64,000 nucleotides of DNA from Candidatus Amesbacteria bacterium RIFCSPLOWO2_01_FULL_48_25 (GCA_001773695.1 MEXN01000001.1:41903-105902); one strand, 5' to 3'; counted from the stretch's first letter, positions 38,131 through 58,493 are shown. Numbers and translations are program-made. Notes: a model not told the origin generated them from the letters alone.

Positions 38131-38205
38131 GGCGAGATGCAAAATGCGCCCGCAGCCGGACGCCGGCAAACGCCAGGCAGTCGAGGACGTAATTTTGCGC
38201 TCGCC
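38131..38205 (-). promoter_or_regulatory. Conserved GC-rich leader element copy 1 (structured RNA or operator candidate), about 25 nt upstream of fic
   Basis: It shares the core GCAGCCGGACRCCGGCAAACGMCCAGGCAGTCGAGSACG with 58421..58493. Outer arms GGCGAG/CTCGCC and GCAAAAT/ATTTTGC bracket the core. Confidence 0.45.
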
Positions 38206-38252
38206 GAACCGACCCTGCGTTAATTCTACGGTTAATATGCGGGAAATACAAT

Positions 38253-38507
38253 ATGGCTAGTAAAAAACTCCACCTGGAAATCATCACCCAGATGCTGTCC
38301 CTTTCCTCCTCCGCCTTCGGTTTAGTCGCCGCCCTAGCCTGGAACACCGTCATCCAAACTTTCATAAACGACTTTATAAAGCCCTTTTTACCAGCCGGCG
38401 GCTCACTTATTATTTCCCAACTCATCTATGCCACCGTCATTACCATGCTAGTCGTCACCATCACTCTCAAGCTCTCCCAAATCAAAGACCGCCTAGAATC
38501 TAATTGA
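38253..38507 (+). CDS. Small membrane protein (84 aa, 2 TM)
   Basis: Two clear hydrophobic helices. The ATG is 25 nt downstream of the conserved element, so that element could alternatively be its leader. Confidence 0.4.
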   Translation: MASKKLHLEIITQMLSLSSSAFGLVAALAWNTVIQTFINDFIKPFLPAGGSLIISQLIYATVITMLVVTITLKLSQIKDRLESN

Positions 38508-39035
38508 CTTTTTAAACTTTAGAAGTGCCCGGGATCGCATTGAAAATTTGTTCTTTTCTTGCAAATCCATCTCCCCAAAAGTCTTTTTAGAACCTCTTGG
38601 CATAAAGATCGGGTCCCAGCCAAAACCCCCACCTCGCAGCTCCCAGGCAATATCACCCATGGTTTTACCCACAAATAAGTGCTCACCGCCTTTCTCATCC
38701 ACGTAAACAATCGTCGTTTGTGCGGTCGCAGTTCTCAATTTATAGCCTTTGAGCATTTCCAAAATTCCTTCATTACCCAGCGCCTTCATAAACGCGTCTA
38801 TGTATGTCCCCGGCAATCCATTAATTGAGTCAATAAAAAGTGCCACATCTTCAACAAATAATGGTTTTTTAAGGGCGGACCAGTAACTTCGGGCCTTTTT
38901 TACCGCCACTTCAATCGGGTCCAACGATTGTATTTCATCTATTTCTAGTGGTATCCCCACCACATCAACGTCCAGGATTGCCCCAGCTTCTTTTAACTTT
39001 CCTTTATTCGTGGTTGCAAAATATATCGTCTCCAT
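38493..39035 (-). CDS. rdgB: Non-canonical purine NTP pyrophosphatase (Ham1/RdgB family)
   Basis: IYFATTNKGKLKE N-terminal motif and FGWDPIF signature. Start at METIYF. Confidence 0.8.
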   Translation of the reverse strand: METIYFATTNKGKLKEAGAILDVDVVGIPLEIDEIQSLDPIEVAVKKARSYWSALKKPLFVEDVALFIDSINGLPGTYIDAFMKALGNEGILEMLKGYKLRTATAQTTIVYVDEKGGEHLFVGKTMGDIAWELRGGGFGWDPIFMPRGSKKTFGEMDLQEKNKFSMRSRALLKFKKSIRF

Positions 39036-40578
39036 TAATATTACTGATGATATCATCGTGACCACCAAATCCGAAACTAACCACCTAGAAAATCTTAGAG
39101 CAGATTTTTTTAAACTTCTCGACCCAGAATATGGCACCAGCCATATTACAAAACTCCTGAGGAAACAAGAAAACGATGGTTCGTATCTCCAAAGATGGTA
39201 CAGCTTCAGCCGGAAGGCCCAGGACGTTTATCCCAGCCAGGGACTTCTCCAAACTCCGTACGACTACCTCGACTATCAAATGAGCCAGGTCCTCCCACAG
39301 GATATTTTGATCGAAACCTTAAGGATCAGAAGGTATTTTCTTGAAATTTCCAATCACCCCTACCGACTCCATTTTTTAAAAAAAGTCAACGATTCAAAAT
39401 TCATCGCCCCCCCAAAAATCAGCTGTCTTCCTATCGAATCCGCCATAAAAAACGGTTTGTCGCTAGCCATCGGCGATCTGGGAGCTACCCCGGCCGGCTC
39501 CCAAAATCCCAGAATAAGCCGTAGAGAAAGATACGCCCAAGGGCCTTTCGTCAAGCTCGGTAAACAAGCCAGAGCCCTATTTATAGGCTCCTCATCTCCG
39601 GACGTCTGGAACAGTTCAGCCGCCATTGCCACTATGGCCGCCTGCCACTGTCTCACCGCGATCCCCAGAAACGGTCTCCTTTCTGATATCAAAAGACAGT
39701 CGGATTTAGCCAAAGATGTTTTTAAATGGCTTGAAAATATGGCAGACGAACTACTTGCCGGCAGGCAAGACAGGCAAGAAATAAGTAAATATTGGGAAAA
39801 CAACGTCATGGGCACGCTGGAAGCGTCCGAAGAAAAAGCTCTAAAAAGAGCCGAATCGCTAATAAAAGCCGGAGTGAGGGTCTTTAGAATTTATTCCCCC
39901 GAACCAGGCACCGGAACGGTTGACACTGTAAAAAAGCTGCGCCAACATTTCGGCCGCAAAATTGAGATCTTCACCAGTCTTATTGTCAGCACAACACAAG
40001 CAAAAAGCGCCCAAGAAGCCGGTGCAGATGGAATATTTGTAGGCATTGGCGGCGGTGGGAGATGCACGACGGGTGTCAGAAGCGGAAGTGCAATTGACTG
40101 GCCGGAACTTGTATACAAACTGCGAGGTGAAATAGAGATCCCCATAATTGTCGAGGGGGGAGCAACCGATCACGTCGCCGTGTCCCTCCTTTTAGGCGCC
40201 AGCGGCATAAGCGTATCCCGGGCTGTCGCGGGCGGAACCATCGAATCGCCCGGAGGCGCCATGTTTCTGTCCGACGATAAGGGCCAACTATTCAAGCCAT
40301 ACGGGGGCGAAGCCTCAGCCAGAGCCAAATTCATTGAAGGAAAACTCTTAGCTTTCAACATTCCCTCATTCATAGAGGGCGAAACCGGTAAGGCCTATTT
40401 AAACTTTAGTAAGCACTCATTTCCCACACTCACGCTAAATCTACATACTCTTGCTGAAGATGCGACCCTGGCCATGGTATTCAAAGGTGTAGCTAATATC
40501 CACGAATTACATGCCATCAATCCTTCCCCTTTAAGGCAAATCACTACCTTCGGCGACTTTCAAAGAAACTCACACTAA
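39010..40578 (+). CDS. IMP dehydrogenase/GMP reductase-family protein with a divergent N-terminal half (start uncertain; an alternative Met lies at 39280)
   Basis: C-terminal half: AGADGIFVGIGGGGRCTTGVRSG...IIVEGGATDHV...ESPGG matches the IMPDH catalytic loop GIGxGSICTT and the flap. The N-terminal 260 aa do not resemble the IMPDH N-terminus or CBS domains. Confidence 0.55.
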   Translation: MVAKYIVSINITDDIIVTTKSETNHLENLRADFFKLLDPEYGTSHITKLLRKQENDGSYLQRWYSFSRKAQDVYPSQGLLQTPYDYLDYQMSQVLPQDILIETLRIRRYFLEISNHPYRLHFLKKVNDSKFIAPPKISCLPIESAIKNGLSLAIGDLGATPAGSQNPRISRRERYAQGPFVKLGKQARALFIGSSSPDVWNSSAAIATMAACHCLTAIPRNGLLSDIKRQSDLAKDVFKWLENMADELLAGRQDRQEISKYWENNVMGTLEASEEKALKRAESLIKAGVRVFRIYSPEPGTGTVDTVKKLRQHFGRKIEIFTSLIVSTTQAKSAQEAGADGIFVGIGGGGRCTTGVRSGSAIDWPELVYKLRGEIEIPIIVEGGATDHVAVSLLLGASGISVSRAVAGGTIESPGGAMFLSDDKGQLFKPYGGEASARAKFIEGKLLAFNIPSFIEGETGKAYLNFSKHSFPTLTLNLHTLAEDATLAMVFKGVANIHELHAINPSPLRQITTFGDFQRNSH

Positions 40579-41385
40579 AAATACTTCTTCTGCCAGGTCA
40601 TCGGCGTTGAAGTTATATCCCACTTTCTTGTACAGCTTTTCAGCTGTTTTTTTAACCAGATATGTTCCGGCCGCCGCGGCCAAAAGTGGCGGATTTTTAG
40701 CCGCCAAGCCCACTATCACCCCCGCCAACACATCTCCCGTCCCGCCTTTGGTCAACCCCGCATTTCCCCCAGTTACCTCATAAGTCGTCTCCCCATCACT
40801 CACATACGCCACCGGCCCCTTATACACAATTATGCATTTATATTTTTGGGAAATTGATTTCAAATTTCGCTCGCGAAGCGCTGGCTCCGCCAGCAATTCA
40901 AATTTCAAATTAAAGAGCATTTCGTACTCCTTGCTGTTGGGGGTAATAATTGCCCCCTTCGGTATCCACCCCGCTTCCATTACCTGCAAACTTCCCCCAT
41001 CTATTACCCATTTTTTCTCCGGAAATTTTCTCAATAAGTTTTCTGTCACCTTTTTTGTCTCATCTCCCCCTCCATCTCCGATCTCCATCCGATATCTCAT
41101 CATCCCCGGTCCAATTAATACCGCGTCTGATTTAGCCACATAATCTTCAACTTCCCCCCACGGCACCCACACAAACGAATTCAACTTAGCGATCTTTTCC
41201 AAATCCCGCTCGGTAGATCCAAAAAAAACCATATCCACCAATCTGGATGCTGCCTTTACCGCCAACATCGGTGCGCCATGAAACAAAGCTGATCCCCCAA
41301 TTATCGTTACCTGCCCATTATCCTCGCCACTGGAATCCTCCCTCGGCCTCCACAATTTTTTCAAGTCGTCAGGTCCAAAAATCAT
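40570..41385 (-). CDS. nnrD: ADP-dependent NAD(P)H-hydrate dehydratase (YjeF C-terminal/Nnr family)
   Basis: GGTGDVLAGVIVGLAA motif in a carbohydrate-kinase fold. Confidence 0.75.
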   Translation of the reverse strand: MIFGPDDLKKLWRPREDSSGEDNGQVTIIGGSALFHGAPMLAVKAASRLVDMVFFGSTERDLEKIAKLNSFVWVPWGEVEDYVAKSDAVLIGPGMMRYRMEIGDGGGDETKKVTENLLRKFPEKKWVIDGGSLQVMEAGWIPKGAIITPNSKEYEMLFNLKFELLAEPALRERNLKSISQKYKCIIVYKGPVAYVSDGETTYEVTGGNAGLTKGGTGDVLAGVIVGLAAKNPPLLAAAAGTYLVKKTAEKLYKKVGYNFNADDLAEEVFLV

Positions 41386-42353
41386 AGCTTAATCACTTTA
41401 AAATCTTTCTCCCCAGGAATCAAATGTTCATCGGCACTAGTAATAACCGCCTGTCCCCCATAATTCTCCGCTAACTTCATCACTTCCTCCCGATGTTTAT
41501 GGTCCAACTCCGAAAATATATCGTCAAGAAGTAATATTGGGCTTCCCCCCAAGTATTCTATTTCCCTCCGCTTCAACCCCAACACCGTCATCCTCTGCTC
41601 TCCCCGACTCCCGTATTTAGATACGTCACGCCCACCAGCCATCAAAACAAAGTCATCCCTATGGGGTCCCACCAAAGTACTCCCCGCCAGCACTTCTTGT
41701 TGTTCATACTGCTTTAATCTTGCCTCCGAGATAACACTTTTGTCATAGAGAAACTCCATCGCCGCCAAAAACTCGGCCCTTTTTTGCGTCAAATACTCGC
41801 CATTTTTAATCAGAAGTTTATCCCAAAAAAATAGTTGGCTCCTACCCGCCCTACCGTCTCTAATCAAATCTAGAAGCCTATTCCTCTGGCGCAATCCCTT
41901 TTCGTAGCTCACCGCCGCTCTTCTATATTCCCGGTCCACCTGGGCTATCACAAAATCCAAATACCTGCGCCTTACAGAAGGACTTCCGGTAACCAACTCC
42001 ATATCCCCAGGCCCGAAACAAACTGCTCGCAAATTCCCCACAAAATCCATCATTCTCCGTGGAACCCCATTCACTTCAAACTTTTTTCTATCAGTGATTG
42101 TGACTTGTAAACTTATAATTTGGTCATCCATTGAGACTTGTGACTTGAGAATTGTAAATTGTTCCCCATATCTCACCATCTCGAAATCCCTCTCCGCCCT
42201 AAAACTCTTCCCCGTAGCCAACAGATAAACAGCCTCAACCAAATTACTCTTCCCACTCCCATTCTCTCCCAACACCAAAGTCCTCCTACCCAGCTCAAAC
42301 TCCCCCCTCCCATAGCTCCTGAAGTTAACCAGTCTGACACTTCGGACATACAT
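41382..42353 (-). CDS. recF: DNA replication and repair protein RecF
   Basis: N-terminal Walker A LVLGENGSGKSNL, SMC-like signature, and the C-terminal D-loop LLLDDIFSELD. In-frame low-complexity insert. Confidence 0.9.
   Translation of the reverse strand: MYVRSVRLVNFRSYGRGEFELGRRTLVLGENGSGKSNLVEAVYLLATGKSFRAERDFEMVRYGEQFTILKSQVSMDDQIISLQVTITDRKKFEVNGVPRRMMDFVGNLRAVCFGPGDMELVTGSPSVRRRYLDFVIAQVDREYRRAAVSYEKGLRQRNRLLDLIRDGRAGRSQLFFWDKLLIKNGEYLTQKRAEFLAAMEFLYDKSVISEARLKQYEQQEVLAGSTLVGPHRDDFVLMAGGRDVSKYGSRGEQRMTVLGLKRREIEYLGGSPILLLDDIFSELDHKHREEVMKLAENYGGQAVITSADEHLIPGEKDFKVIKL
42094..42163. repeat. Degenerate TTGTGAC/TTGAGA repeats inside recF
   Basis: gtgattgtgacttgtaaacttataatttggtcatccattgagacttgtgacttgagaattgtaaattg. 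Confidence 0.8.
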
Positions 42354-43155
42354 ACGTCCCCCTGCCTCCTAACTCAAATTTCTTAATTACACCCTTACAC
42401 CGTCTACACTCTTGCCCCTCCCGGTCGTACACCCGAAAGTGCTCCTGGTAATGCCCACCCAACCCGTGCAAGTCGATGTATTTAGCGTCGGCCGCAGTCG
42501 CCCCCCCGTATTTAATTCCTTCGCTCAATACGAGTTTTATTTTCTCCAGCAAAACTGTCAACTGTTCCCCTTGGAGCTTGTGGCTTGGGGTTTGTGGATT
42601 GGTTTTGGCTTCCCAAAGCGCGTCATTTGCATAAATATTCCCCACCCCAGATATTACTTCCTGGTCCATAATCGCAACCTTAATAGGTTTTCTTAATCTA
42701 CCTAATCTCTTAATAAACTCAGTCTCGTTTATCTCAAACGGTTCCGGCCCCAGCTTTTCCACAAATTTCGGATTCACCTCCACCCACCCGAACAATCTCT
42801 GGTCATTGAAATAAAGTGTCCCCTTACTGAAATAAAATATCGCCCTTGTGTGTCCGCTTGGCATCCTGGCCACAAAATCCTCCGTCGGATGCCCGCCTAC
42901 CACTCTCTTGCCTTTTTCTTCATATATTAATTGGCCAGTCATTTTGAAATGAAAACCTAGTTTTAATCCCGGACCAAAATTTATCAATAACACCTTCCCC
43001 CTTCTCTCGACACCTTTTACACCTTTATGCTTTATGCTATCGAGATTCCCCTTAATCACTTTATGATTTAATATCTTAATATCTTTGCAAACCTGTCCCA
43101 TCAGCACCCTCCCCAACTGCACCCTCACCGTCTCAATCTCAGGCAATTCCGGCAT
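42325..43155 (-). CDS. mutM: Formamidopyrimidine-DNA glycosylase
   Basis: MPELPEIETV N-terminus (Pro2/Glu3 catalytic), H2TH, and a C-terminal zinc finger CRRCKG...CPKCQ. Confidence 0.9.
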   Translation of the reverse strand: MPELPEIETVRVQLGRVLMGQVCKDIKILNHKVIKGNLDSIKHKGVKGVERRGKVLLINFGPGLKLGFHFKMTGQLIYEEKGKRVVGGHPTEDFVARMPSGHTRAIFYFSKGTLYFNDQRLFGWVEVNPKFVEKLGPEPFEINETEFIKRLGRLRKPIKVAIMDQEVISGVGNIYANDALWEAKTNPQTPSHKLQGEQLTVLLEKIKLVLSEGIKYGGATAADAKYIDLHGLGGHYQEHFRVYDREGQECRRCKGVIKKFELGGRGTYVCPKCQTG

Positions 43156-43167
43156 GAACCAATCTTA

Positions 43168-43668
43168 TCACTGCTCCCCCATTATCCTGCCTATCACTCC
43201 CAAAGCTTCTTTATCTTTCTCTCTCAACCCCCTAAACCCGATATATCTACTCCGAGCTGAACTCTCTTCAGAGTCTGGTGGCCTGCCCAACCTATCCAAC
43301 AACCCCCCAACCCGAAAACTAAATGGCACTCCTTTAAATTCGTCTCTAATCCTATCGCCATACTCCCCCTGAATAAACACATCGTTGGCACTTATCAAGC
43401 ACTCGATCCCTTTCTCCCCCTGATACAAATGACCGCTCAGTTTCACTCCTCCCTCATGTCTTTTTTTGTCAATGACACTAAAACCCCCGTGACCCATCGT
43501 TATCCTCTTCCAATAACACCACCCACCTACCCCCAACATCACTAACATCATGTTCAGACTTTTTTTTAACTCTACGCGACTCTCGATCAGGTGCATATCC
43601 ATATCGATCCAATATCCCCCCAATCTTCTCCCACAATTCCACCGTCGCCTCTTCAGGCAATGGCTCAC
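43168..43668 (-). CDS. Hypothetical membrane-anchored protein
   Basis: Probable start at MDMH or MMLVML; one TM; no motif. Confidence 0.35.
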   Translation of the reverse strand: MSHCLKRRRWNCGRRLGGYWIDMDMHLIESRVELKKSLNMMLVMLGVGGWCYWKRITMGHGGFSVIDKKRHEGGVKLSGHLYQGEKGIECLISANDVFIQGEYGDRIRDEFKGVPFSFRVGGLLDRLGRPPDSEESSARSRYIGFRGLREKDKEALGVIGRIMGEQ

Positions 43669-43813
43669 CCCACTTCTTTGTCAATATATCCTCCTTTATT
43701 TTATTTCTCCTCGCCATCAAACCCCGCAGCTCTTCTTCCCTATTTATCCCCCTTAAACGGTCAGCAACCTGACCCAATTTCTGATCGATTTCCCCACCAA
43801 TATACCTAAACAT
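43478..43813 (-). CDS. Hypothetical protein (111 aa); overlaps the downstream ORF in another frame
   Basis: Charged helical composition. The overlap suggests a mis-called start or a frameshift. Confidence 0.3.
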   Translation of the reverse strand: MFRYIGGEIDQKLGQVADRLRGINREEELRGLMARRNKIKEDILTKKWGEPLPEEATVELWEKIGGILDRYGYAPDRESRRVKKKSEHDVSDVGGRWVVLLEEDNDGSRGF

Positions 43814-44939
43814 ATCCCTTCACCAATTCTACCATATCGTTCTTAAATCTCTCTTTCGAAAATTTTCCCGCCCATTTTCTAATCTCTGTTTTGTCCCACT
43901 CCACCCCCCTTGCCTCTTTTATCGCCTTCCACAATCCCTCCGGTGTCAACTCGTCAAAAAATATTCCGGTTGCCCGCCCTGAGCCCGTCGAAGGGTCTAC
44001 CACCGTCTCCAAATATCCTCCATTCCTAAAAGCAATCGCCGGGGTTCCATACATCATCGGCTCGACCGTAGTCATCCCAAAGTCAGATTCAGACTCCAAT
44101 GCCAAAAATCCCTTCGCGCCAGCCAATAATTCCTGTTTCTGTTCCTCCGTTACTTCTCCTAAATACTCGACAGTCGGCCCCTTTATTTCAGAAGCAATTT
44201 TTTCACCCGCCGACCCAATCGGTCTCCCCGCCACTTTAAGTTTAAATTTATATTTATTAGCAGCCATCACCGCCAGCTCAATATTCTTACTCCCCACAAT
44301 TCTTGAGACAATTAGATAATAATCCCCATAATCATTCTCACCTCTTAGATTAAGAGGGGGGGAGGGGGGCGTTATGGGTGGATATACAACTCTTGCTTCC
44401 CTCCTATAAAACTTTCTTATCCTATTTGCCACGTTCTTAGAATTTGCCACAAACACGCCAGGCCTCTGGGCCCATTTAAAATCCACCATCCGCAACACAT
44501 GATCTACAATCAGGGAAATCGGCCGGAAATACCATTTATTTCTTTCCTGCCGCGCAGTCGGGTACCCGTACAAAAATCGCGGTGGCGTATGACAGTAAGT
44601 AATAATTTTAGTCCCACTCCCCACCTTAATACCGTTGGGAAAATACCCACCCGTCGCCGAAATTATCACCACGTCGTAACTAGACAAATCTAAGTATTTA
44701 AAAAATAACGGCGAAATTATCGTGTAATAGCTCAATAGTTTATCGGCCCATGGTAAATATCCTCCCCAACTCTCTCTAATATCCCAACTCTCCAATATCG
44801 CTCGGTATTCTCCCCAATACTTCGGGAATTTATAAGCCGTAAAAACCGGTGCCTCAGGCCAAATTTCCTTTAACGCCATCAGCACCTTCTCCGCCCCTCC
44901 AACTTCCTTCAAATAATCATGGACCAATGCCACCTTCAT
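43806..44939 (-). CDS. Glycosyltransferase family 4 (GT-B, group 1)
   Basis: C-terminal EX7E-type motif ESDFGMTTVEPMMYGTPAIAFRNGGYLE. Confidence 0.8.
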   Translation of the reverse strand: MKVALVHDYLKEVGGAEKVLMALKEIWPEAPVFTAYKFPKYWGEYRAILESWDIRESWGGYLPWADKLLSYYTIISPLFFKYLDLSSYDVVIISATGGYFPNGIKVGSGTKIITYCHTPPRFLYGYPTARQERNKWYFRPISLIVDHVLRMVDFKWAQRPGVFVANSKNVANRIRKFYRREARVVYPPITPPSPPLNLRGENDYGDYYLIVSRIVGSKNIELAVMAANKYKFKLKVAGRPIGSAGEKIASEIKGPTVEYLGEVTEEQKQELLAGAKGFLALESESDFGMTTVEPMMYGTPAIAFRNGGYLETVVDPSTGSGRATGIFFDELTPEGLWKAIKEARGVEWDKTEIRKWAGKFSKERFKNDMVELVKGYV

Positions 44940-45820: not shown

Positions 45821-46061
45821 TACTCAATTCTACTCCCGACGGAACAAAATCTCCCCCACCACGGCCTATCCACATTTCAGGATGGTTAATGTCGGTTCTC
45901 ATTCTACAAACGGCCATAGCAGCTCCACATCCTGTACCACCTCCACACCGCTTCAACATCTTGATTGCAGCCGCATACTCAAGCAAGTCTGGGTCAACCC
46001 CCAATAATCTATCTAACCAGCTTCCTTCTCCACTCAGGCCACAGGTTTCACATTTAATCAT
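45813..46061 (-). CDS. Small Cys-containing protein, DUF1858/redox-disulfide-like (tentative)
   Basis: CETCG...CGGGTGCGAAMAVC pattern; it overlaps the exonuclease gene by 8 nt. Confidence 0.35.
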   Translation of the reverse strand: MIKCETCGLSGEGSWLDRLLGVDPDLLEYAAAIKMLKRCGGGTGCGAAMAVCRMRTDINHPEMWIGRGGGDFVPSGVELSNE

Positions 46062-46065
46062 TAAA

Positions 46066-48351: not shown

Positions 48352-49362
<1,011 letters not shown>

Positions 49363-50132: not shown

Positions 50133-50156
50133 GCCTCAATTGTACACTTTTGTACA

Positions 50157-51360: not shown

Positions 51361-51440
51361 CTACTAAATATTACCACTCCCGCGAGGACTTCATGAAATC
51401 AATTTTTGGAATCCGCAAAGCCAGCTTCGAATGGTATAAT

Positions 51441-51446
51441 AAGAAT
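51441..51446 (+). promoter_or_regulatory. -10 box TATAAT about 10 nt upstream of the GC-rich ORF-free region
   Basis: cttcgaatggTATAATaagaattg. Confidence 0.35.
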
Positions 51447-51454
51447 TGTTCTTT

Positions 51455-51745
51455 CAAAAAGACGTGCGGGGTAGTGTAGAGTTGCACGGAAGGCTAGTAG
51501 TATGGGCCCCGCCGACAGTAATGTCGGTGTGCAAACTTGGCTATATCGGTGGACACCCCGGTGTAATACCGGGACAATACCGAGGCAATCCCGAAAGGGC
51601 GAGTCCGTAGAGACTAAACGCCAAGTCCCCCCGAAGCTTCATGCGAAGGGGGAATGATATAGTCCGACACTCAAAGTAATTTGAGATTACAGATCAGCAT
51701 AATCTTCCAGGCCGGGCGCGACTCCCGGCCCCGCAACAAGTAAAA
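51455..51745 (+). ncRNA. Unidentified structured RNA candidate (about 290 nt, GC-rich, ORF-free)
   Basis: No ORF in any frame across about 350 nt, and GC markedly above the flanks. Many local hairpins with GNRA-type loops: GCGGGG...CCCCGC, CCGACA-GTAA-TGTCGG, CCGGT-GTAAT-ACCGG, CCC-GAAA-GGG, CTCAAA-GTAAT-TTGAG, GCCGGG...CCCGGC. Confidence 0.35.
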
Positions 51746-51806
51746 TTTAGCTTCAAAAACCGAGAGATGGGAGTGATAGGATCACGCCTGGTGTATAATT
51801 TAACAG

Positions 51807-52178
51807 GTGAAGCTTAAGAAAATTCTGGATAAATTACTCGAAATATACTTTTTGGGAATGGGAGTGTTCTTTGTGTTCGGGTCTGTGGTATCTTTCTTTG
51901 TATTTCTTTCCCAAAAGGTCGAAGTAGGCCTTATAACACCCGTTAAAACCCTAGTATTTGGACTCCTTTTTCTTTATTCAGGTGTTAGTTTAATGAGAAA
52001 GAAAGCCCACGGATACCAATATTGTCTTCTGGCATTGGCGATAGTTTTCCTTGTATCAACCCTGCATAGATTGTTTTTTGTAACAAGTTTCAGATTAGAG
52101 CGGGTGGATTTTAATAACTTACTTTTGTTTGGAATCCCGTTCCTGGTCACCCTCCTCTCGAATAAATTAGAAATATGA
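51807..52178 (+). CDS. Hypothetical membrane protein (123 aa, 4 TM), GTG start
   Basis: Hydrophobic helices; GTGTATAAT lies about 10 nt upstream. Confidence 0.4.
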   Translation: MKLKKILDKLLEIYFLGMGVFFVFGSVVSFFVFLSQKVEVGLITPVKTLVFGLLFLYSGVSLMRKKAHGYQYCLLALAIVFLVSTLHRLFFVTSFRLERVDFNNLLLFGIPFLVTLLSNKLEI

Positions 52179-52195
52179 TCGTATCGGTTTTGATA

Positions 52196-52225
52196 AAAAC
52201 CAGGTTCTGATTTCATCCAACCCCC
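52196..52225. repeat. Direct repeat copy 1 (AAAACCAGGTTCTGATTTCATCCAACCCCC)
   Basis: About 30 nt with 27/30 identity to 53236..53267; it lies immediately 3' of the fic gene. Confidence 0.7.
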
Positions 52226-52228
52226 AAA

Positions 52229-53188
52229 TTAGGTTGACAATTTTCGCTGCCTTTGCCGCCCTTTAACATATCTTTCTATAGCTTCTTGAGTGGCAACCCA
52301 AATGCGCTTTTCCTTGTGTGCTTCGATTTTTCCGAAACGGGCCAAAAGATTGAGATATTTCTTTGAGTAAGGAGTTAAATTTACCAACGAAGACAGTGGT
52401 TGATATTTTTTCCCGGCATCTACTTCGGGAGACAGGGTTTTTAGGTAAATATTCAACGATCGTTCTATCGCTTGGGCCACAAAGCGAATCAACGGAGCAA
52501 GCTTCCCTTTGTCCGCATCTGCCAAAACCCGATAATATTTTTGCCTGTCGTTTTTTAGAATAACCACCAGAGGATAGCCTCTGTTTAGTAAGACAAGGTT
52601 CATAACCAAACGGGCAGTTCGTCCGTTACCATCCACAAAGGGGTGGATGTAAACCAGTTTGTGATGCAGAATAGCCGCGAATTCAACAGGATGGAGCTTT
52701 TGAATATTCTCCCCGGCCCAGGATATCAAATCGCTCATCTCAAACGAAACTTCACTCGAATCCGGTGGTAAATGGTCGGAACCGGTAATCATGACATTGG
52801 TTTGTCTATAACTTCCGGCTTGGTCCGCTTCCGTTTCCCGAACTACCAGCTTGTGCAGGTTTCTGATTAAAACTTCCGAAATTGTTTGTTGGGAGTTTTT
52901 TTCAACTAACTCATAGAGGTAATCCAACGCGTCGTAATGATCACGTGCTTCCAGATGGTCTTTAAGCGGTTTACCCTTGATAGTCAGGCCGTCTTTAATA
53001 ACCCAAGCCGTTTCTTTGAGAGTTAAGGAATTGCCCTCAATCGCGTTGGAATTGTAAGTCATTTCTATGGCAAACTGTTCCCGCAGCTTAGCCACAGCAG
53101 ATGTAGACAACGGTCTTTGAGGGTTAAGTTTGGCCAGTTTTTCATCAATTCTAGCCTGAATTCGAGAGTCTAATATGGTATAGACCAT
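52229..53188 (-). CDS. Fic-family protein
   Basis: HPFVDGNGRTARLV core motif; C-terminal helical domain. Confidence 0.8.
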   Translation of the reverse strand: MVYTILDSRIQARIDEKLAKLNPQRPLSTSAVAKLREQFAIEMTYNSNAIEGNSLTLKETAWVIKDGLTIKGKPLKDHLEARDHYDALDYLYELVEKNSQQTISEVLIRNLHKLVVRETEADQAGSYRQTNVMITGSDHLPPDSSEVSFEMSDLISWAGENIQKLHPVEFAAILHHKLVYIHPFVDGNGRTARLVMNLVLLNRGYPLVVILKNDRQKYYRVLADADKGKLAPLIRFVAQAIERSLNIYLKTLSPEVDAGKKYQPLSSLVNLTPYSKKYLNLLARFGKIEAHKEKRIWVATQEAIERYVKGRQRQRKLST

Positions 53189-53235
53189 ATTTCTTCTTAT
53201 ACCATGTTAAGAACTGGATTGCAAGCAGGTAGTGA

Positions 53236-53267
53236 GAGAAAATAGGTTCTGATTTCATCCAATCCCC
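53236..53267. repeat. Direct repeat copy 2 (AAAATAGGTTCTGATTTCATCCAATCCCCG)
   Basis: Matches 52196..52225; it lies immediately 5' of the fic gene. Confidence 0.7.
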
Positions 53268-53276
53268 GCAACCAAG

Positions 53277-53304
53277 TCAAAACCCGCTTCACGGCGGGTT
53301 TTTT
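53277..53304. terminator. Bidirectional intrinsic terminator AAAACCCGCTTCACGGCGGGTTTTTT
   Basis: GC stem CCCGC/GCGGG flanked by an A-run and a T-run. Confidence 0.6.
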
Positions 53305-53322
53305 AGTCCCTCATCCTAAGGT

Positions 53323-53328
53323 ATAATC
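53323..53328 (+). promoter_or_regulatory. -10 box TATAAT, 11 nt upstream of the tRNA 5' fragment
   Basis: cctaaggTATAATcaaggctaaatcGGCTACG. Confidence 0.4.
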
Positions 53329-53339
53329 AAGGCTAAATC

Positions 53340-53358
53340 GGCTACGTAGCTCAATGGT
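53340..53358 (+). repeat. Duplicated tRNA-Met 5' segment (acceptor and D-arm, 19 nt: GGCTACGTAGCTCAATGGT)
   Basis: 17/19 identical to positions 1-19 of the intact tRNA at 54095; tRNA-like sequence does not continue beyond it. Confidence 0.7.
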
Positions 53359-53426
53359 GTATTTTAAAAACGTTGGTTGTAAGAAATGCGAACCGATGAT
53401 ACAATAAACCATAGATATCGTTTTCT

Positions 53427-54104
53427 ATGGCAAAATCGTACCTTAAAAACAGGGCCATCGAGCTTCGTAAATCCGGCCTGAGTGTCAAGAATATCGCTGA
53501 ATCCCTAGGAGTCTCCAAAAGCACCGCAAGTTTGTGGGTCAGAGACATAGTCCTTTCTCTTGAACAAGAGGAGTCTCTAAAACAAAGATCCTTAAAAGGA
53601 GCGGAAAAGGGTCGCACAATCGGATCGCTAGTTCAAAAACAAAGACGGCTCAAACTGCTAGAAACAGAGAAAAAAATCGGGATAAAAGAGGTGGGGCAAC
53701 TCACCAAAAATGAGCTTAAAGTCGGCGGCTTAGCTCTGTACTGGGCCGAAGGATCCAAAAAGAACCGCAGAGTCGAACTTTGCAACTCGGATCCCTTCGT
53801 TATCAAGTTCTTCATCAACTGGCTCATTAATACTTTCGACATACCCATAAAGGAACTCTCTTGCTATGTCGGTATTAATGAGGCTCACAGGGCTAGAGAA
53901 GTCAAAGTGAAAAAATACTGGTCGCTCTTAACGAAAATTCCCCTCACCAGCTTCACTAAAACTAGCTTCAAAAAGTATCCCCTCAAAAAAGAATATCCAA
54001 ACTTTGACGAACACTATGGCACACTTTCAGTTCGTGTGCGGAAACCGGCACGAATTTACTATAAAATCCTAGGTGGAATCCACGGACTGTCCATGGCTAC
54101 GTAG
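53427..54104 (+). CDS. HTH + LAGLIDADG-like putative homing endonuclease (225 aa)
   Basis: N-terminal HTH (LRKSGLSVKNIAESLGVSKSTASLWV) and a LAGLIDADG-like motif GGLALYWAEGSK. The stop codon TAG lies within nucleotides 8-10 of the downstream tRNA (GGCTACGTAG). Confidence 0.45.
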   Translation: MAKSYLKNRAIELRKSGLSVKNIAESLGVSKSTASLWVRDIVLSLEQEESLKQRSLKGAEKGRTIGSLVQKQRRLKLLETEKKIGIKEVGQLTKNELKVGGLALYWAEGSKKNRRVELCNSDPFVIKFFINWLINTFDIPIKELSCYVGINEAHRAREVKVKKYWSLLTKIPLTSFTKTSFKKYPLKKEYPNFDEHYGTLSVRVRKPARIYYKILGGIHGLSMAT

Positions 54105-54167
54105 CTCAGCGGTTAGAGCGCACGCTTCATAAGCGTGATGTCGCTGGTCCGATCCCAGCCGTAGCCA
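54095..54167 (+). tRNA. tRNA-Met (anticodon CAU; elongator type or tRNA-Ile-lysidine, not initiator-like)
   Basis: GGCTACGTAGCTCAGCGGTTAGAGCGCACGCTTCATAAGCGTGATGTCGCTGGTCCGATCCCAGCCGTAGCCA is a complete cloverleaf. G1-C72 and the absence of three G-C pairs in the anticodon stem argue against an initiator. T-loop TCCGATC. Confidence 0.85.
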
Positions 54168-54431
54168 CATGTCCAAAGATATTCTGTTCCGGATCCGCCA
54201 ACCCCAAAAACCAGGGCCAACAACTTTTCTCAATGGTATCCCATACTCACGAATAAGACACGCATACAATCTAAGCAATCAAGCCCCTGTTGAAGAATCA
54301 CCCTCCTCAATAACCCTTTTCGAGAGAGTTGTTACTAGTAAAACCAGTTGGATAAGGCCATGTCGCGTAATTACGCCACGCGAATGGCTGGTATCTCAAT
54401 TAATCAAACTCTTTCCCAACGAAAAAGTGGT

Positions 54432-54776
54432 CTAAATCCCCACATACAACTCCCACCATTTGCGCCAATTTGCCTCGGTATTGGAATTTGTGGCTTGAGA
54501 TTTAAGATTTGGAGGACTTGGTACAATCACAACAACCTCTCCTAGCTTTCCCAAGCCTAGTTTCTCCCTCGCCTCCCGCTCCACAAAATCATCCGATTTT
54601 ACCTCCTCTAACTTCTGCTGCAGCTGCTTGTTTTCAACCTCAGCCGCCGCCACTTCAGACTGGGCTCGTTTCACCCTCTCCCCCGCCCGGATTAGTCTCC
54701 ACACATTCCCCCCCAGCCTCACCGTGACACCAATACTCAATATCAATACCAGCCATCTAACCCATCTCTTTCCCAT
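54432..54776 (-). CDS. Septum formation initiator (FtsB/DivIC-like)
   Basis: Single TM plus a coiled coil (RAQSEVAAAEVENKQLQQKLEEVKSDDFVEREAREKLGL). Start at MGKRW. The C-terminus contains a repeat-derived insert. Confidence 0.5.
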   Translation of the reverse strand: MGKRWVRWLVLILSIGVTVRLGGNVWRLIRAGERVKRAQSEVAAAEVENKQLQQKLEEVKSDDFVEREAREKLGLGKLGEVVVIVPSPPNLKSQATNSNTEANWRKWWELYVGI

Positions 54777-54803
54777 ATTTCCATTGTACCAGGCACGACT
54801 CTC

Positions 54804-55742
54804 TTGCAATCTCCACCCCAACCAGGTACAATTCATCAATTAACCTGTCCCATAGTCAATTTACAAATGGCCTCACTTCCCGACCCAATTAGCTTTGATA
54901 CTGCCCTGGAGAAATTTACCAGCCACCTTAAAAGTCAACACCGCTCTTCCTCCACCTCAATAGCCTATATCGGCGACCTGGCCCAACTCCGCTCCTACCT
55001 GGAAACTCACCGCATTACCCAAGCTACTACCGTCCAAACCCAGCACTTAGAGGAGTTTGTCACCCAGCTGGGAGAAAAAAACTACACTCCCAAGTCTATA
55101 AGCCGCAAGATCAACTCACTCAAGACTTTTTTCAAATTCCTCCATCAAACCGGCCTCCACAACTCCAACCCCGCCTCTCCCCTCACCCACCCCAAATACA
55201 CCACTCCCCCACCCCGCATATTAACCCAAGAAGAATACTCCAAGCTGCGCGACGCCTGCCGACTGGATATTAGGGTTTGCGCCATCGTCGAGATCCTTCT
55301 CCAAACCGGCATGCGCATTTCCGAGCTGGCCAACCTCAGGCTGGAAGACATCAAGAAAAACGAGCTTTTCATCCGCCCTCTAGAAAACAATCCGGAGCGT
55401 TCCATCCCCTTAAACCGCCAGGCTACCATCGCCATTCAGAACTACCTGAGCCTGCGTCCCACCACTGCCGATACCCATCTTTTCGTCACCAAAACCGGCC
55501 GGCCGCTACTGATTAGAAATATCAGAACCAGTATCGATCGCTATTTCAAAAAGGCCGGCCTGAGCAACATCAAAGTCAACGATCTTCGGCACACCTTTAT
55601 AGCCCACCAGCTAAGTAACGGCGTCCTGCCCGAAGTCATCCACAAACACGTCGGTCACCGCCGGATCAGTTCCACCGAAAAATACCTCGAATTTATAAAG
55701 ATCACCGCCACTACCACCTCCTCCAAACTCCTGGAATTGTAA
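54804..55742 (+). CDS. Tyrosine site-specific recombinase (XerC/XerD/integrase family); likely start MASLPD near 54870
   Basis: N-terminal SAM-like core-binding domain; catalytic R...HxxR...Y (LRHTFIAHQL, HVGHRRISSTEKYLEF). Confidence 0.8.
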   Translation: MQSPPQPGTIHQLTCPIVNLQMASLPDPISFDTALEKFTSHLKSQHRSSSTSIAYIGDLAQLRSYLETHRITQATTVQTQHLEEFVTQLGEKNYTPKSISRKINSLKTFFKFLHQTGLHNSNPASPLTHPKYTTPPPRILTQEEYSKLRDACRLDIRVCAIVEILLQTGMRISELANLRLEDIKKNELFIRPLENNPERSIPLNRQATIAIQNYLSLRPTTADTHLFVTKTGRPLLIRNIRTSIDRYFKKAGLSNIKVNDLRHTFIAHQLSNGVLPEVIHKHVGHRRISSTEKYLEFIKITATTTSSKLLEL

Positions 55743-55751
55743 ATTAACTAA

Positions 55752-55889
55752 TTAACCAATCACCTTTCTAATCTTCTTCCGTTCTTTGCTCCTAAACGCC
55801 CAGATCCCAACTAGCAGTATCAGTATCACCACAATCGTCCATCCCCCCGCCTTAAATAATTTAAACGCCAGCTTCCAAAAACCCAACAT
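55752..55889 (-). CDS. Small membrane protein (about 45 aa from MLGFWK)
   Basis: One TM plus a basic tail; the longer listed ORF abuts the tRNA. Confidence 0.25.
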   Translation of the reverse strand: MLGFWKLAFKLFKAGGWTIVVILILLVGIWAFRSKERKKIRKVIG

Positions 55890-55949
55890 CTTATAGTCCA
55901 AAGACAAATCTGTCAGCGATTGGGTTATGAAATGAGCCAAACGTATCAT

Positions 55950-56024
55950 TGGTGACTCGACGGGGAATCGGACCCCGATTACGGGGATGAAAGCCCCGTG
56001 TCCTAGCCGTTAGACGATCGAGCC
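55950..56024 (-). tRNA. tRNA-Glu (anticodon UUC), CCA encoded
   Basis: The minus-strand read GGCTCGATCGTCTAACGGCTAGGACACGGGGCTTTCATCCCCGTAATCGGGGTCCGATTCCCCGTCGAGTCACCA has anticodon loop CTTTCAT and T-loop TCCGATT. Confidence 0.8.
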
Positions 56025-56043
56025 GTAGAAGCTAATTTTACCA

Positions 56044-58389
56044 TTACAGCTTCGCTCTCGCCGCAATCTCACTCTCGACCAGGCGCACATCCCGACCATA
56101 TTTCAGTCTCGACAGCTGCTTTATAGCTTCGGCCAGCTTCTCATTGCGCATCCCCCGCTCAGCCGTTATATCCTTAGTCACGTCCATAGTAAACGGCGTC
56201 ACCGGCTCGTTTCTCACAATAGTTTTGATAAACACGTTAAACCTCTCAATATTCAGTAAGTCCGCCTCGTTAAAAGTAGGCGTATACTCATGCTGCAAAT
56301 AGTTAGCGTCCCCCACTCCCACCCGGAAGGAAACCAAAGTTCCCACATTCCCAAACACCGCGTTTTTCACCTCGTCCTCCATCTGAGAAGTAAACTGGTT
56401 GGCTACGATCAAATTCAGCTTGTATTTCCTAGCTTCCGACAAAATAGTAGCAAAATCCGGCGTGGCAAAATTCTGAAACTCGTCCACGTACAAGTAAAAC
56501 GGCCGTCTGTCTTTTTCTAAAATATCAGCTCTACTCATAGCCGCAGACAAAAGTCTGGGTACCAATACCAACCCCAGAAAATTACTATTTTCCTCTCCCA
56601 ATTTTCCCTTGGACAAATTGACAATCAAAATTTTCCCCTCGTCCATCACCGCCCGGAAATCAAATGCCGATTGAGGCTGGCCGATAATATTTCTTATCGT
56701 CCGGTTAGTCACGAACCGGCCAAACTTGGACACAATATAATCCAGCACTTCGGATTTATGAAAGTCGGAGGTTTGGGCAATCTGGTCGGTCCAATACCGC
56801 CTCACAATTGGGTCTTTCACCCGCGGCAACATCTCCTGGACAAACTCAGGTCGCTGCAGCGCCTGCACCACCTCGATAAACGTTCCCCCCGGCACTGCGT
56901 CCATGACGGTCAACATTGCATTCCTGATCGCGTGTTCAAACCTCGGCCCAATAATCCCGGTTTTATGTGGATCGTACAGCTTGTACATCATCCCAATCAC
57001 GGCATTAGTAGCCATATGCCGCTCCTGGTCGGACCTGGCCTCGATCAAGTTCAACCCCATCGGCCGCTCCGTATCCGACGGATCAAAAAAGACCACATCC
57101 TCCGCCCGCTCGGGCGGGATATAACCAAGCAAGTCCTCTGCTAGATCATGCGGGTCGATGACACAAACTCCCTTCCCCGCCCGGATATCCTGGAGAATCA
57201 TCGTCTTCAAAAATTCCGTCTTTCCCGTCCCCGTCCGCCCGATAATATATATGTGCCGTTCCCGGTCCATATCTGAGGTATAAACCGGCCGTGTCACTCC
57301 TCTAAAAACTGACTTGCCTAAATACAGCCCTTCCGTAGGTATCCCCTGCGGCGCCGGCGCCCGCTTGGCATTCAGCCAAAAAATATGCGGCGTCTCCACG
57401 GATTTATTCGGGAAGTGGTAAATAGTAGCCAGCTCCTCGGAATTTAATACCGTCCAATTTCCCCACCAGACCATCGGCTGATACCTGTAGATAAAGTCCA
57501 CCATAAAGCTGGTTTTCAGTCGGATTTTCTTGCCCTTAAATCCATTCAAATCCCCATTAAACTGCTCAAACGCCGCCTTAATATTGGCCAAGTGCGCACG
57601 GGCCGAGTCACGGTTAACCGAAGACACCACAATCCGTATTGTCGTGGCAAATCCGTTTTTAGACACTTTGTTATCCACTGCCTCCAGAACTTTAGGGTCC
57701 ACTTTATAACTGGCCTTCTCCGGATCGGACTCGCTCTTTTTAGTCTTTCCAATCCACGTCCTACCTTTTTTCTTCCATCCCGCCTCGGCCGGTGCCAACA
57801 CTATCTGCACGTGCGCTCCCTCCCCATCTCCCATTTTAGCCAGCGCCGAGGTCACAGCCGCCATGGGATCCGTCGTCAAATTTTTAAATATCTGGATAGG
57901 ATAATACGACGCGTTTCGTAGTATCAGCCAAGCAAACTCCACACGGCCGTCAACTGTAAATATATTCGGCTCCTCCACCACCTTAATTTCAGCCCCCGAA
58001 TACCCGCCATGGATTTGCTTCTCTACCAAGTCCCGCAATTTCTCAGGCAGCATGATATAAAACCGGATGTCTTCCTTTCGGGCCAATATTTCAAAAGAGA
58101 TATGTGGCTGCACCTGCAAAAATGAAAACCACCCAAACGGCCCCAATCCCCCCCTCTTGATCGAATACAGGCTGCTAATTATCTGTTCCATGGCATCAAT
58201 TTTTATTTCGTTATCCCGCGGCACCGCCACCTGCAGGCACACCATCTCCAGACTCTTATCTTCCCTGTCCCGGTGCCGGTACCACACCACCAGCAAATAC
58301 CCCACCAATGTCATCAGCACCACAAACACACCCAAAATAACGACCAGTAATACTATCGGCCCAATCAAACTCGCCACATACGGATTCAT
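56044..58389 (-). CDS. VirB4/TraG-like (AAA_10/DUF87-type) membrane-anchored P-loop ATPase, type IV secretion/conjugation-like
   Basis: N-terminal TM; Walker A IIGRTGTGKTEF followed by VIDPHDLAEDL (the hDP+GE-like signature of VirB4/TraC/TraG ATPases); Walker B LYVDEFQNF. Confidence 0.65.
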   Translation of the reverse strand: MNPYVASLIGPIVLLVVILGVFVVLMTLVGYLLVVWYRHRDREDKSLEMVCLQVAVPRDNEIKIDAMEQIISSLYSIKRGGLGPFGWFSFLQVQPHISFEILARKEDIRFYIMLPEKLRDLVEKQIHGGYSGAEIKVVEEPNIFTVDGRVEFAWLILRNASYYPIQIFKNLTTDPMAAVTSALAKMGDGEGAHVQIVLAPAEAGWKKKGRTWIGKTKKSESDPEKASYKVDPKVLEAVDNKVSKNGFATTIRIVVSSVNRDSARAHLANIKAAFEQFNGDLNGFKGKKIRLKTSFMVDFIYRYQPMVWWGNWTVLNSEELATIYHFPNKSVETPHIFWLNAKRAPAPQGIPTEGLYLGKSVFRGVTRPVYTSDMDRERHIYIIGRTGTGKTEFLKTMILQDIRAGKGVCVIDPHDLAEDLLGYIPPERAEDVVFFDPSDTERPMGLNLIEARSDQERHMATNAVIGMMYKLYDPHKTGIIGPRFEHAIRNAMLTVMDAVPGGTFIEVVQALQRPEFVQEMLPRVKDPIVRRYWTDQIAQTSDFHKSEVLDYIVSKFGRFVTNRTIRNIIGQPQSAFDFRAVMDEGKILIVNLSKGKLGEENSNFLGLVLVPRLLSAAMSRADILEKDRRPFYLYVDEFQNFATPDFATILSEARKYKLNLIVANQFTSQMEDEVKNAVFGNVGTLVSFRVGVGDANYLQHEYTPTFNEADLLNIERFNVFIKTIVRNEPVTPFTMDVTKDITAERGMRNEKLAEAIKQLSRLKYGRDVRLVESEIAARAKL

Positions 58390-58420
58390 ATATTCATGAT
58401 ATCAAAATAACAAAGGCACA

Positions 58421-58493
58421 GGCATGCTAGCAAAGTCGCGCGCAGCCGGACACCGGCAACGACCAGGCAGTCGAGCACGACCTTTGCGCATGC
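58421..58493 (-). promoter_or_regulatory. Conserved GC-rich leader element copy 2, about 32 nt upstream of the ATPase gene
   Basis: Same core as 38131..38205, with compensatory outer arms GGCATGC/GCATGCC and GCAAAG/CTTTGC. Confidence 0.45.

What the first reader, a model, noticed from the sequence alone, without database searches (positions are those of the whole stretch)
38131..58493. Two copies of a ~75-nt GC-rich element with a conserved core and compensatory outer stems, in the 5' leaders of a Fic gene and a VirB4/TraG-like ATPase gene
The copies are 38131-38205 and 58421-58493. Both share an almost identical core, GCAGCCGGAC(G/A)CCGGCAA(A)CG(C/A)CCAGGCAGTCGAG(G/C)ACG. The core includes an internal hairpin GCCGG-AC(G/A)-CCGGC whose loop varies while the stem is conserved.

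The flanking arms differ in sequence but keep complementarity. Copy 1 has GGCGAG...CTCGCC and GCAAAAT...ATTTTGC; copy 2 has GGCATGC...GCATGCC and GCAAAG...CTTTGC.

Covarying stems around an invariant core argue for a structured RNA (riboswitch-like or other cis-regulatory RNA) rather than MITE terminal repeats. Both copies sit 25-35 nt upstream of minus-strand start codons: fic at 38112 and the 781-aa ATPase at 58389. Copy 1 is also 25 nt upstream of a plus-strand small membrane ORF, so its operative strand is ambiguous. GC content (~65%) is far above the local average. I could not match it to any RNA family I know.
Basis: seen in the sequence. Interest (0 to 1): 0.85.

Follow-up and report, generated by a model that had tools for sequence, protein, structure and literature searches.

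The report
Mobile palindromic hairpin element in Amesbacteria
The two GC-rich hairpins are real and their stems do covary, but they are copies of a small inserted palindromic element, comparable to the Rickettsia palindromic elements, that also sits in frame inside the murB gene of related bacteria; they are not a conserved regulatory leader of the fic and ATPase genes.

Summary
There are two about 87-nt copies, at 38124-38211 and 58414-58500, in direct orientation. They share a nearly identical 33-nt apical core, and their stems differ in sequence but stay complementary. No Rfam family matches.

The riboswitch or cis-regulatory reading does not hold. The window comes from a Candidatus Amesbacteria (CPR) chromosome. 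Seven orthologous loci of the coupling-ATPase gene in other Amesbacteria (69-87% aa identity) have a spacer too short for the element or lack the core, so copy 2 is a lineage-specific insertion of about 90 nt placed just after a stop codon.

Other copies exist elsewhere. One is intergenic. One lies in frame inside murB of a distant Microgenomates genome, in the opposite orientation relative to the host gene. Six of 120 MurB homologues, which do not form a clade, carry a 24-33 aa insert at that same site. One of them translates the core in a different frame, and another, read as DNA, is a rearranged copy.

My best reading is a small non-autonomous palindromic insertion element, like RPEs or MITEs, with an unusual conserved core and variable arms, and probably a preference for particular sites. 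How it moves is unknown. It is a new variant of a known kind, of moderate interest.

The parts
38124..38211 (.). Copy 1, whole element (88 nt). Layout: P0 CGGT/ACCG, loop GCA/GA, P1 GGCGAG/CTCGCC, loop AT/G, P2 GCAAAAT/ATTTTGC, P3 GCG/CGT, C and A bulges, CC/GG, then the core. It lies between divergent genes: fic (ATG at 38112, minus strand) and DUF5654 (38253, plus strand).
   Evidence: Sequence. Fold. CM hit of 85.7 bits, E=1.7e-22.
38152..38184 (.). Copy 1 apical core, GCAGCCGGACGCCGGCAAACGCCAGGCAGTCGA. It contains the hairpin GCCGG-ACG-CCGGC. The second hairpin is disrupted here (AAACGC where the other copies have AACGAC).
58414..58500 (.). Copy 2, whole element (87 nt). Layout: P0 AGGC/GCCT, loop ACA/GA, P1 GGCATGC/GCATGCC, loop TA, P2 GCAAAG/CTTTGC, P3 TCG/CGA, bulges, GC/GC, then the core. 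It starts 7-8 nt after the stop codon (58510-58508, minus strand) of a 173-aa ORF and ends 24 nt before the ATG (58389) of the 781-aa coupling-protein-like ATPase.
   Evidence: Sequence. CM hit of 97.9 bits. Insertion status from comparison with L162, L165, L166 and L124.
58442..58474 (.). Copy 2 apical core, GCAGCCGGACACCGGCAACGACCAGGCAGTCGA. It is predicted to form a three-way junction with the hairpins GCCGG-ACA-CCGGC and CGAC-CAGGCA-GUCG.
37027..38112 (-). Neighbouring gene: Fic-domain protein with a C-terminal HTH (361 aa from the ATG at 38112). It is not part of the element.
   Evidence: Pfam Fic, E=2.8e-19.
56044..58389 (-). Neighbouring gene: 781-aa DUF8128/TraG-D_C coupling-protein-like ATPase. 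It is syntenic and conserved across Amesbacteria, so it is a chromosomal gene rather than a conjugative-island gene. It is not part of the element.

Best explanation
The two copies belong to a family of short (about 72-100 nt) non-autonomous palindromic insertion elements of Microgenomates (CPR) genomes.

Each copy is a roughly 20-bp interrupted hairpin (P0, GA loop, P1, internal loop, P2/P3). The hairpin presents a conserved apical module of about 33-44 nt: GCA, then hairpin GCCGG-ACR-CCGGC, AA, then hairpin CGAC-CAGGCA-GUCG.

Copies are gained at new sites in individual lineages. They survive where they do little harm: in intergenic spacers, often directly after a stop codon or in a divergent promoter region, and in frame and stop-free in a surface linker of MurB. 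This is the pattern described for Rickettsia palindromic elements.

Shown here:
- The element is present in this lineage and absent at orthologous sites.
- An in-frame coding copy exists.
- The element occurs recurrently at one murB site in non-sister lineages.
- The arms covary, and at least one core has decayed or been rearranged.

Inferred, not shown:
- The element moves, or moved, as a folded single strand whose conserved apical module is what a trans-acting enzyme recognises. The arms would then need only to pair, which would explain a constant core with free arms.
- It prefers targets of the form ..RCA^GAR(C)C.. or short palindromes.
- In the window its effect on fic and the ATPase gene is incidental: a strong hairpin in the 5' UTR or operon spacer that may terminate, insulate or stabilise transcripts.
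For: Insertion status of copy 2:
- Five orthologous ATPase loci have spacers of 0-26 nt with no element (L124, L127, L162, L165, L166; 69-87% aa identity). The two longer spacers (L125, 229 nt; L126, 96 nt) hold unrelated sequence without the core.
- The AT-rich 25 nt that follow copy 2 align with the whole 26-nt spacer of L162.

Further canonical copies from the metagenome scan:
- L149 is intergenic and starts 10 nt after a stop codon.
- L157/L159 lies inside murB.

The murB insert:
- A 15-sequence MurB alignment shows a clean 24-aa (72-nt) insert, QALQKKHAQPDAGNDQAVEHVFSK. This equals the hairpin.
- Against P. aeruginosa MurB (4jay), 40 query residues span a gap of 11 chain residues.
- The AlphaFold model keeps the MurB fold (pLDDT 83). 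Part of the insert scores below 50.
- 6 of 120 MurB homologues carry 24-33 aa at the same site. Five of the six have an insert-free MurB as nearest relative, at 59-70% identity, so they are not a clade.
- P0125 contains RSRTPATTRQS, which is the core read in frame +2. P0121 reads it in frame +1.
- P0161, read as DNA (L169:2459-2556), is a rearranged copy that still forms a hairpin and lies in the same sense orientation.

Structure and origin of the arms:
- 12 of 22 pairs have compensatory changes; 0 of 500 shuffles reach this.
- Arm pairing is far beyond shuffled arms, 0 of 1000.
- The arms are not copied from flanking DNA.

No match to Rfam, plasmids or phages.

RPE precedent: about 150-bp palindromic elements inserted in frame into unrelated genes (PMC10969869).
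Against: - No transposase, RAYT, reverse transcriptase or other mobilising gene was found in the window.
- No target-site duplication is evident.
- Copy number looks low. There are 2 copies in about 73 kb of this genome. CM and nhmmer searches found no further copy in the held loci of related genomes.
- Only 3 true hits came from one strict metagenome pattern. A six-frame core-peptide search of 5.8 billion proteins gave nothing.
- A conserved centre with variable arms is the reverse of MITEs, REPINs and attC sites, where the ends are the conserved part.
- Such strong conservation of 15 unconstrained core positions across organisms whose MurB proteins are only about 50-57% identical would also fit a core with a cellular function.
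- Repeated occurrence at one murB site in one orientation could reflect function or ancestry rather than targeting.
- Only five copies were read as DNA. Two of them were found with a pattern that itself required 23 core bases to match.
Confidence: 0.6

Rival explanations
1. A functional structured nucleic-acid module, RNA or folded DNA. The conserved three-way-junction core would bind a cellular protein or ligand, or act catalytically. It would be recruited repeatedly, or retained under selection, at several loci, including inside the murB mRNA. On this reading the element is not merely selfish.
For: - The core is essentially invariant at positions my search pattern did not constrain, while all stems covary.
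- The architecture is constant: about 20-21 bp of stem, an internal loop at a similar distance from the core, and an invariant GA on the 3' side of the outer loop.
- All murB copies whose orientation could be read are sense-oriented: two as DNA and one from its reading frame.
- In the + orientation the junctions and loops are A- and G-rich, and there are G.U pairs in copies 1 and L149.
Against: - Orientation relative to host genes is inconsistent. Three intergenic copies are antisense to the flanking genes, while the murB copies are sense.
- The copy in L169 has lost half of the core yet persists. Copy 1 has a disrupted second hairpin.
- There is one A.C mismatch that would be a G.U pair on the other strand.
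- No Rfam family matches, even at E<=10.
- The element is absent from orthologous sites in close relatives.
Confidence: 0.2
2. One reading: a riboswitch-like or other cis-regulatory leader RNA, transcribed with and controlling the downstream minus-strand genes fic and the coupling-protein ATPase.
For: - Both window copies lie 11-24 nt upstream of minus-strand start codons.
- A -10-like GTAGAATTA / GTAGAGTTA sits just upstream of each copy on the minus strand, and U-rich tracts follow.
- Stems covary around an invariant core.
Against: - The element is not conserved at any of seven orthologous ATPase loci.
- The TAG within the -10-like motif of copy 2 is the stop codon of the upstream gene. The U-rich tract is native spacer, homologous to the spacer of L162.
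- The promoter/terminator scan found no promoter on the minus strand at either copy.
- Other copies lie inside murB in the opposite orientation, or between unrelated ORFs.
- No Rfam hit.
Confidence: 0.05
3. An ancient single insertion, at least in murB, inherited vertically and lost many times. On this reading the window copies would be old relics and not products of recent mobility.
For: - The arms are saturated with changes while the hairpin is kept.
- P0185 and P0214 are each other's closest insert-bearing relatives and share related insert peptides.
Against: - Insert-free MurBs keep a conserved IAKEPYT-type motif that imprecise deletions would not regenerate.
- Insert-bearing proteins are scattered among insert-free neighbours that are closer relatives.
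- The P0126 and P0161 inserts are visibly more alike than their host proteins, which are 56% identical.
- Copy 2 is missing even from relatives at 86-87% identity.
Confidence: 0.1

Closest known systems
Rickettsia palindromic elements (RPEs)
   Same: Both are short palindromic repeats in a small, reduced genome. Both are found in intergenic DNA and inserted in frame, free of stop codons, into unrelated housekeeping genes, where they add a tolerated peptide segment. Neither has an associated transposase, and hairpin potential is maintained in both (PMC10969869).
   Different: There is no sequence relationship and the phylum is different (CPR/Microgenomates). This element is shorter (about 72-88 nt against about 100-150 nt). 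Conservation is concentrated in a central core while the arms are free to vary. The same murB site is hit in several non-sister lineages, which suggests site preference. Observed copy number is low.
Bacterial MITEs and REP/REPIN-type repeats (ERIC, Correia, BOX, REPIN-RAYT)
   Same: Small, non-coding and hairpin-forming. Dispersed, lineage-specific insertions, often just downstream of stop codons. They can act as terminators or as mRNA stabilisers.
   Different: MITEs and REPINs conserve their terminal inverted repeats, which the transposase or RAYT recognises, and vary in the middle. Here it is the reverse. No target-site duplication, no GTAG-type REP head common to all copies and no RAYT or IS parent were found.
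Yeast mitochondrial GC clusters (own knowledge, not checked here)
   Same: GC-rich palindromic mini-elements in a lower-GC genome. They are mobile and occasionally sit in frame within a coding gene (var1).
   Different: They belong to a eukaryotic organelle, are shorter (30-60 bp) and have AT-rich target flanks. There is no sequence similarity.
Riboswitch / cis-regulatory leader RNAs
   Same: An invariant junction core with covarying stems, and several copies per genome that differ in stem sequence.
   Different: There is no conserved gene association, no conserved orientation, no orthologous conservation and no Rfam match. One copy is translated within murB.

Membership tests
Riboswitch / cis-regulatory leader RNA | Conserved position upstream of orthologous genes in related genomes | tested here: not met
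   Seven orthologous ATPase loci lack it. Five spacers are 0-26 nt, and the two longer ones (96 and 229 nt) have no core.
Riboswitch / cis-regulatory leader RNA | Fixed orientation relative to the regulated gene, and a coherent regulon | tested here: not met
   The element is antisense-oriented relative to fic, the ATPase gene and the L149 ORFs, but sense-oriented inside murB. The host genes are unrelated.
Riboswitch / cis-regulatory leader RNA | Covarying helices around a conserved core | tested here: met
   12 of 22 pairs show compensatory changes and 92.5% of cells are paired. No shuffle out of 500 reaches this.
Any Rfam 15 family | Covariance-model match | tested here: not met
   No hit at the gathering threshold, nor any real hit at E<=10 with lax filters.
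MITE | Terminal inverted repeats conserved in sequence among copies and matching a parent IS | tested here: not met
   The arms differ completely between copies. No IS or transposase is present in the window.
MITE | Target-site duplication | tested here: inconclusive
   No direct repeat flanks any copy. The flanks share only ..RCA | GAR(C)C.., and these flanks pair with each other as helix P0.
MITE / mobile repeat in general | Presence/absence polymorphism at orthologous sites | tested here: met
   Copy 2 against L162, L165, L166 and L124. The murB insert is present in 6 of 120 homologues, which do not form a clade.
RPE-like palindromic element | In-frame, stop-free insertion into a housekeeping ORF with the fold preserved | tested here: met
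   A 24-aa insert in the MurB linker. The AlphaFold model keeps the MurB fold, and part of the insert scores pLDDT below 50.
RPE-like palindromic element | Many copies per genome | tested here: inconclusive
   There are 2 copies in about 73 kb. The rest of the genome could not be read.
REP/REPIN-RAYT | GTAG-headed REP pairs plus a RAYT gene | tested here: not met
   GTAG lies near copies 1 and 2 only, and in copy 2 it is part of a stop codon. No Y1 transposase was found.
Intrinsic terminator | GC-rich stem directly followed by a U tract, in every member | tested here: not met
   Only copy 2 (minus strand) has a good U tract, and that tract is native spacer. L149 and the murB copy have none.
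Integron attC | Conserved R''/L''...L'/R' ends, a variable centre and a nearby IntI | tested here: not met
   The conservation pattern is the opposite. The only tyrosine recombinase (54804-55742) is the syntenic XerC/D-like gene present in relatives that lack the element.

The most novel reading that the evidence does not exclude
The element is a homing-type hairpin element. Its conserved three-way-junction core would be an active or recognition module, for example a small ribozyme or the binding site of an unknown single-strand-specific enzyme. It would insert in an orientation-specific way into loops of short palindromes (..RCA^GAR..). This would explain repeated hits at the same murB codon in non-sister CPR lineages. 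Alternatively, the murB copy is removed from the transcript, making it a new class of tiny intervening sequence in CPR.
Probability: 0.1. Interest if true: 0.85.

Novelty: new variant of a known kind. Interest (0 to 1): 0.5.

Why it matters
CPR bacteria have tiny, streamlined genomes. My four full-text literature searches found no description of small palindromic mobile repeats in them.

An RPE-like element in Microgenomates would be a second, independent case of selfish hairpin DNA colonising essential genes of a reduced genome, because it reaches even the coding sequence of murB. Its conserved core with free arms, and its apparent preference for one murB site, hint at a mobilisation mechanism that recognises a folded apex and not the element's ends.

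There is also a practical point. Such elements can be mistaken for riboswitch candidates, because they show textbook covariation.

Tried and rejected
1. The genome-contig scan with GCAGN{12,24}CCAGGCAGTCGAGNACG was wasted.
2. A viral-contig scan with a 20-base pattern gave 17 chance hits in contigs of 53-71% GC.
3. A search of the 5.8-billion-protein database with the core translated in all six frames found 11 word-sharing candidates, none with E<=10.
4. BLASTN of copy 2 against plasmids and phages gave only chance fragments, with E>=0.06.
5. I tested whether the arms are inverted copies of flanking host DNA, or whether the core had inserted into a pre-existing palindrome. Only 7-8-mer chance matches turned up, and in murB the whole hairpin is the insert.
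6. Strand assignment from G.U pairs is mixed. Two copies favour the + orientation and the L169 copy favours the - orientation. Minimum free energies are similar on both strands.
7. An SRP RNA, tRNA-like RNA or known ribozyme was considered. There is no Rfam support.
8. The similarity GTAGARTTA upstream of both copies on the minus strand was considered as a promoter or part of the element. It is absent from L149 and L157, and in copy 2 its TAG is a stop codon.
9. The other inverted repeats in the window (I7, I8, and 20841-20901) lie in coding sequence or lack the core.
10. A look-up to extend the genome to the left failed because the protein is not on record. The extension to the right added 9 kb with no new copy.
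Full report
**Observation**

Each half of the shared core occurs exactly twice in 64 kb, even with 3 mismatches allowed. Chance expectation is 0.04.

Both copies fold into long interrupted hairpins as RNA or DNA on either strand, with z-scores from -1.8 to -5.4. Read carefully, each element is larger than reported:
- an outer 4-bp helix, P0
- an internal loop with an invariant 3' GA
- P1, then a 2-nt internal loop, then P2/P3
- single C and A bulges and a 2-bp closing helix
- a 33-nt apex, predicted to be a three-way junction: GCA, GCCGG-ACR-CCGGC, AA, CGAC-CAGGCA-GUCG, A

The full spans are 38124-38211 and 58414-58500. GC content is 0.64 against 0.477 for the window. Rfam 15 has no match at gathering thresholds, nor at E<=10 with lax filters.

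**Context**

The window is chromosomal DNA of a Candidatus Amesbacteria (Microgenomates, CPR) population from Rifle groundwater. The same sequence is present in MAG GCA_001773615.1 and in JGI sample 3300025323.

Housekeeping genes lie between the two copies: FtsH, a class I aaRS, Fpg, RecF-like, a 5'-3' exonuclease and XerC/D-like. The copies therefore do not bound an island.

The '781-aa ATPase' is a DUF8128/TraG-D_C coupling-protein-like gene. It is syntenic across Amesbacteria.

**Test of the leader hypothesis**

I fetched the orthologous ATPase locus from seven other Amesbacteria (69-87% aa identity).
- In L124, L127, L162, L165 and L166 the spacer to the upstream gene is 0-26 nt.
- In L125 and L126 the spacer is longer (229 and 96 nt) but holds unrelated sequence.
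- None has the core.

The 25 AT-rich nucleotides between copy 2 and the ATG align with the entire 26-nt spacer of L162. Copy 2 is therefore an insertion of about 90 nt placed right after the stop codon of the upstream gene. It was gained after divergence from relatives that are 86-87% identical. The -10-like motif and the U tract that made the minus strand look like a leader are, respectively, partly a stop codon and native spacer.

**More copies**

One strict metagenome pattern returned copy 2 again (L145) and two new canonical copies.

L149 comes from the same sample as the window organism. Its copy is intergenic and starts 10 nt after a stop codon.

L157/L159 is a 41-42% GC contig. Its copy lies inside murB, in frame and without a stop codon. 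The window '+' orientation is the sense strand there.

All arms differ in sequence and length but pair in every copy. Pairing is far beyond shuffled arms, 0 of 1000. On a model-based alignment of five copies, 12 of 22 pairs show compensatory changes and 92.5% of cells pair. No shuffle out of 500 reaches this, and slid registers pair only 27-38%. The arms are not copies of flanking DNA.

**The murB site**

Against 14 Microgenomates MurBs, the L157 protein has a clean 24-aa (72-nt) insert that equals the hairpin. Against P. aeruginosa MurB (4jay), 40 query residues span a gap of 11 chain residues. An AlphaFold model keeps the MurB fold (pLDDT 83), with part of the insert scoring below 50.

Among 120 homologues, six carry 24-33 extra residues at this same site, replacing the conserved AKEP. 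Five of the six have an insert-free MurB as nearest relative, at 59-70% identity, so they do not form a clade.
- P0125 contains RSRTPATTRQS, which is the canonical core read in a different frame from P0121.
- P0161, read as DNA (L169:2459-2556), is a rearranged copy in the same sense orientation. It keeps GCAGCCGGA...AGTTCGAGGACG and the long hairpin, but has lost half of the core. It scores only 13.7 bits with the covariance model.

So diverged members exist and are hard to detect. My copy counts are lower bounds.

**Searches for further copies**

nhmmer with a core profile, and a covariance model (R1) with filters off, found no further copy in the window. Nor did they in the held loci of related genomes. 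A six-frame core-peptide search of the protein database, and BLASTN against plasmids and phages, found nothing. No transposase, RAYT or reverse transcriptase is encoded in the window.

**Interpretation**

The data fit a small non-autonomous palindromic insertion element. The features that point this way are:
- lineage-specific gain
- unrelated contexts
- either orientation relative to host genes
- tolerated in-frame coding copies
- decay of some cores

The closest analogue is the Rickettsia palindromic element (PMC10969869). The element differs from MITEs, REPINs and attC sites because the centre is conserved and the ends are free.

I infer, but have not shown, that a trans-acting factor recognises the folded apex on a single strand, and that the arms need only pair. 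Recurrent, orientation-consistent insertion at one murB codon, together with the shared flanks ..RCA|GAR(C)C.. (which also pair as P0), suggests target preference.

A genuine cellular function of the core cannot be excluded (about 0.2). The riboswitch or leader reading is largely refuted (about 0.05). The strand that matters is unresolved: wobble pairs point both ways.

**Limits**

Only five copies were read as DNA. Two of them were found with a pattern that required 23 core bases to match. The genome-contig scan was lost to chance hits. The rest of the source genome, the insert-free murB DNA and the fic orthologous loci could not be read. No expression data are available.

Noticed in passing
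window 51428-51686 (+), with ORF 51807-52178 (+): Rfam Group I intron hit (62 bits, full length). No tRNA is called there. An unannotated 123-aa ORF lies downstream. Which gene hosts the intron is unclear.
   Followed up: no
window 13768-14304 (-): A LAGLIDADG homing-endonuclease ORF (Pfam E=1.3e-19) lies between the 5S (13173-13289) and 23S (14406-17220) rRNA genes.
   Followed up: no
window 17220-21472: The 16S and 23S rRNA genes are separated by about 4.2 kb. This spacer holds tRNA-Ala, MacB/FtsX-like and HlyD-like genes (17941-20137), and a tRNA-Ile on the opposite strand. The rRNA operon is therefore unlinked or interrupted.
   Followed up: no
window 52229-53188 (-): A second Fic-domain gene (319 aa) lies 14 kb from the first. 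It has no copy of the element upstream.
   Followed up: partly
window 59.2-63.4 kb; L119/L167: A cluster of toxin-antitoxin-like genes (ParE/PhD, PIN/RHH, HEPN) lies next to the ATPase locus. Its content varies between the Amesbacteria loci.
   Followed up: no
MurB homologues P0125, P0126, P0161, P0185, P0214, P0121 (site ..LQKI|AKEP|YT..): The same MurB linker site carries 24-33 aa palindrome-derived inserts of at least three sequence types in non-sister Microgenomates lineages. This looks like an insertion hotspot.
   Followed up: partly
L159 4289-5208 (-): D-Ala-D-Ala ligase is called as two adjacent ORFs (140 and 159 aa) next to the murB gene that carries the element. This could be a frameshift or a split gene.
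   Followed up: no
L126 9900-9970; L125 9830-9930: Two other Amesbacteria carry unrelated inverted repeats in the same spacer upstream of the ATPase gene: an AT-rich one in L126 and a GC-rich one in L125. Their folds are not significant (z -1.3 to -1.6) and there is no Rfam hit.
   Followed up: partly
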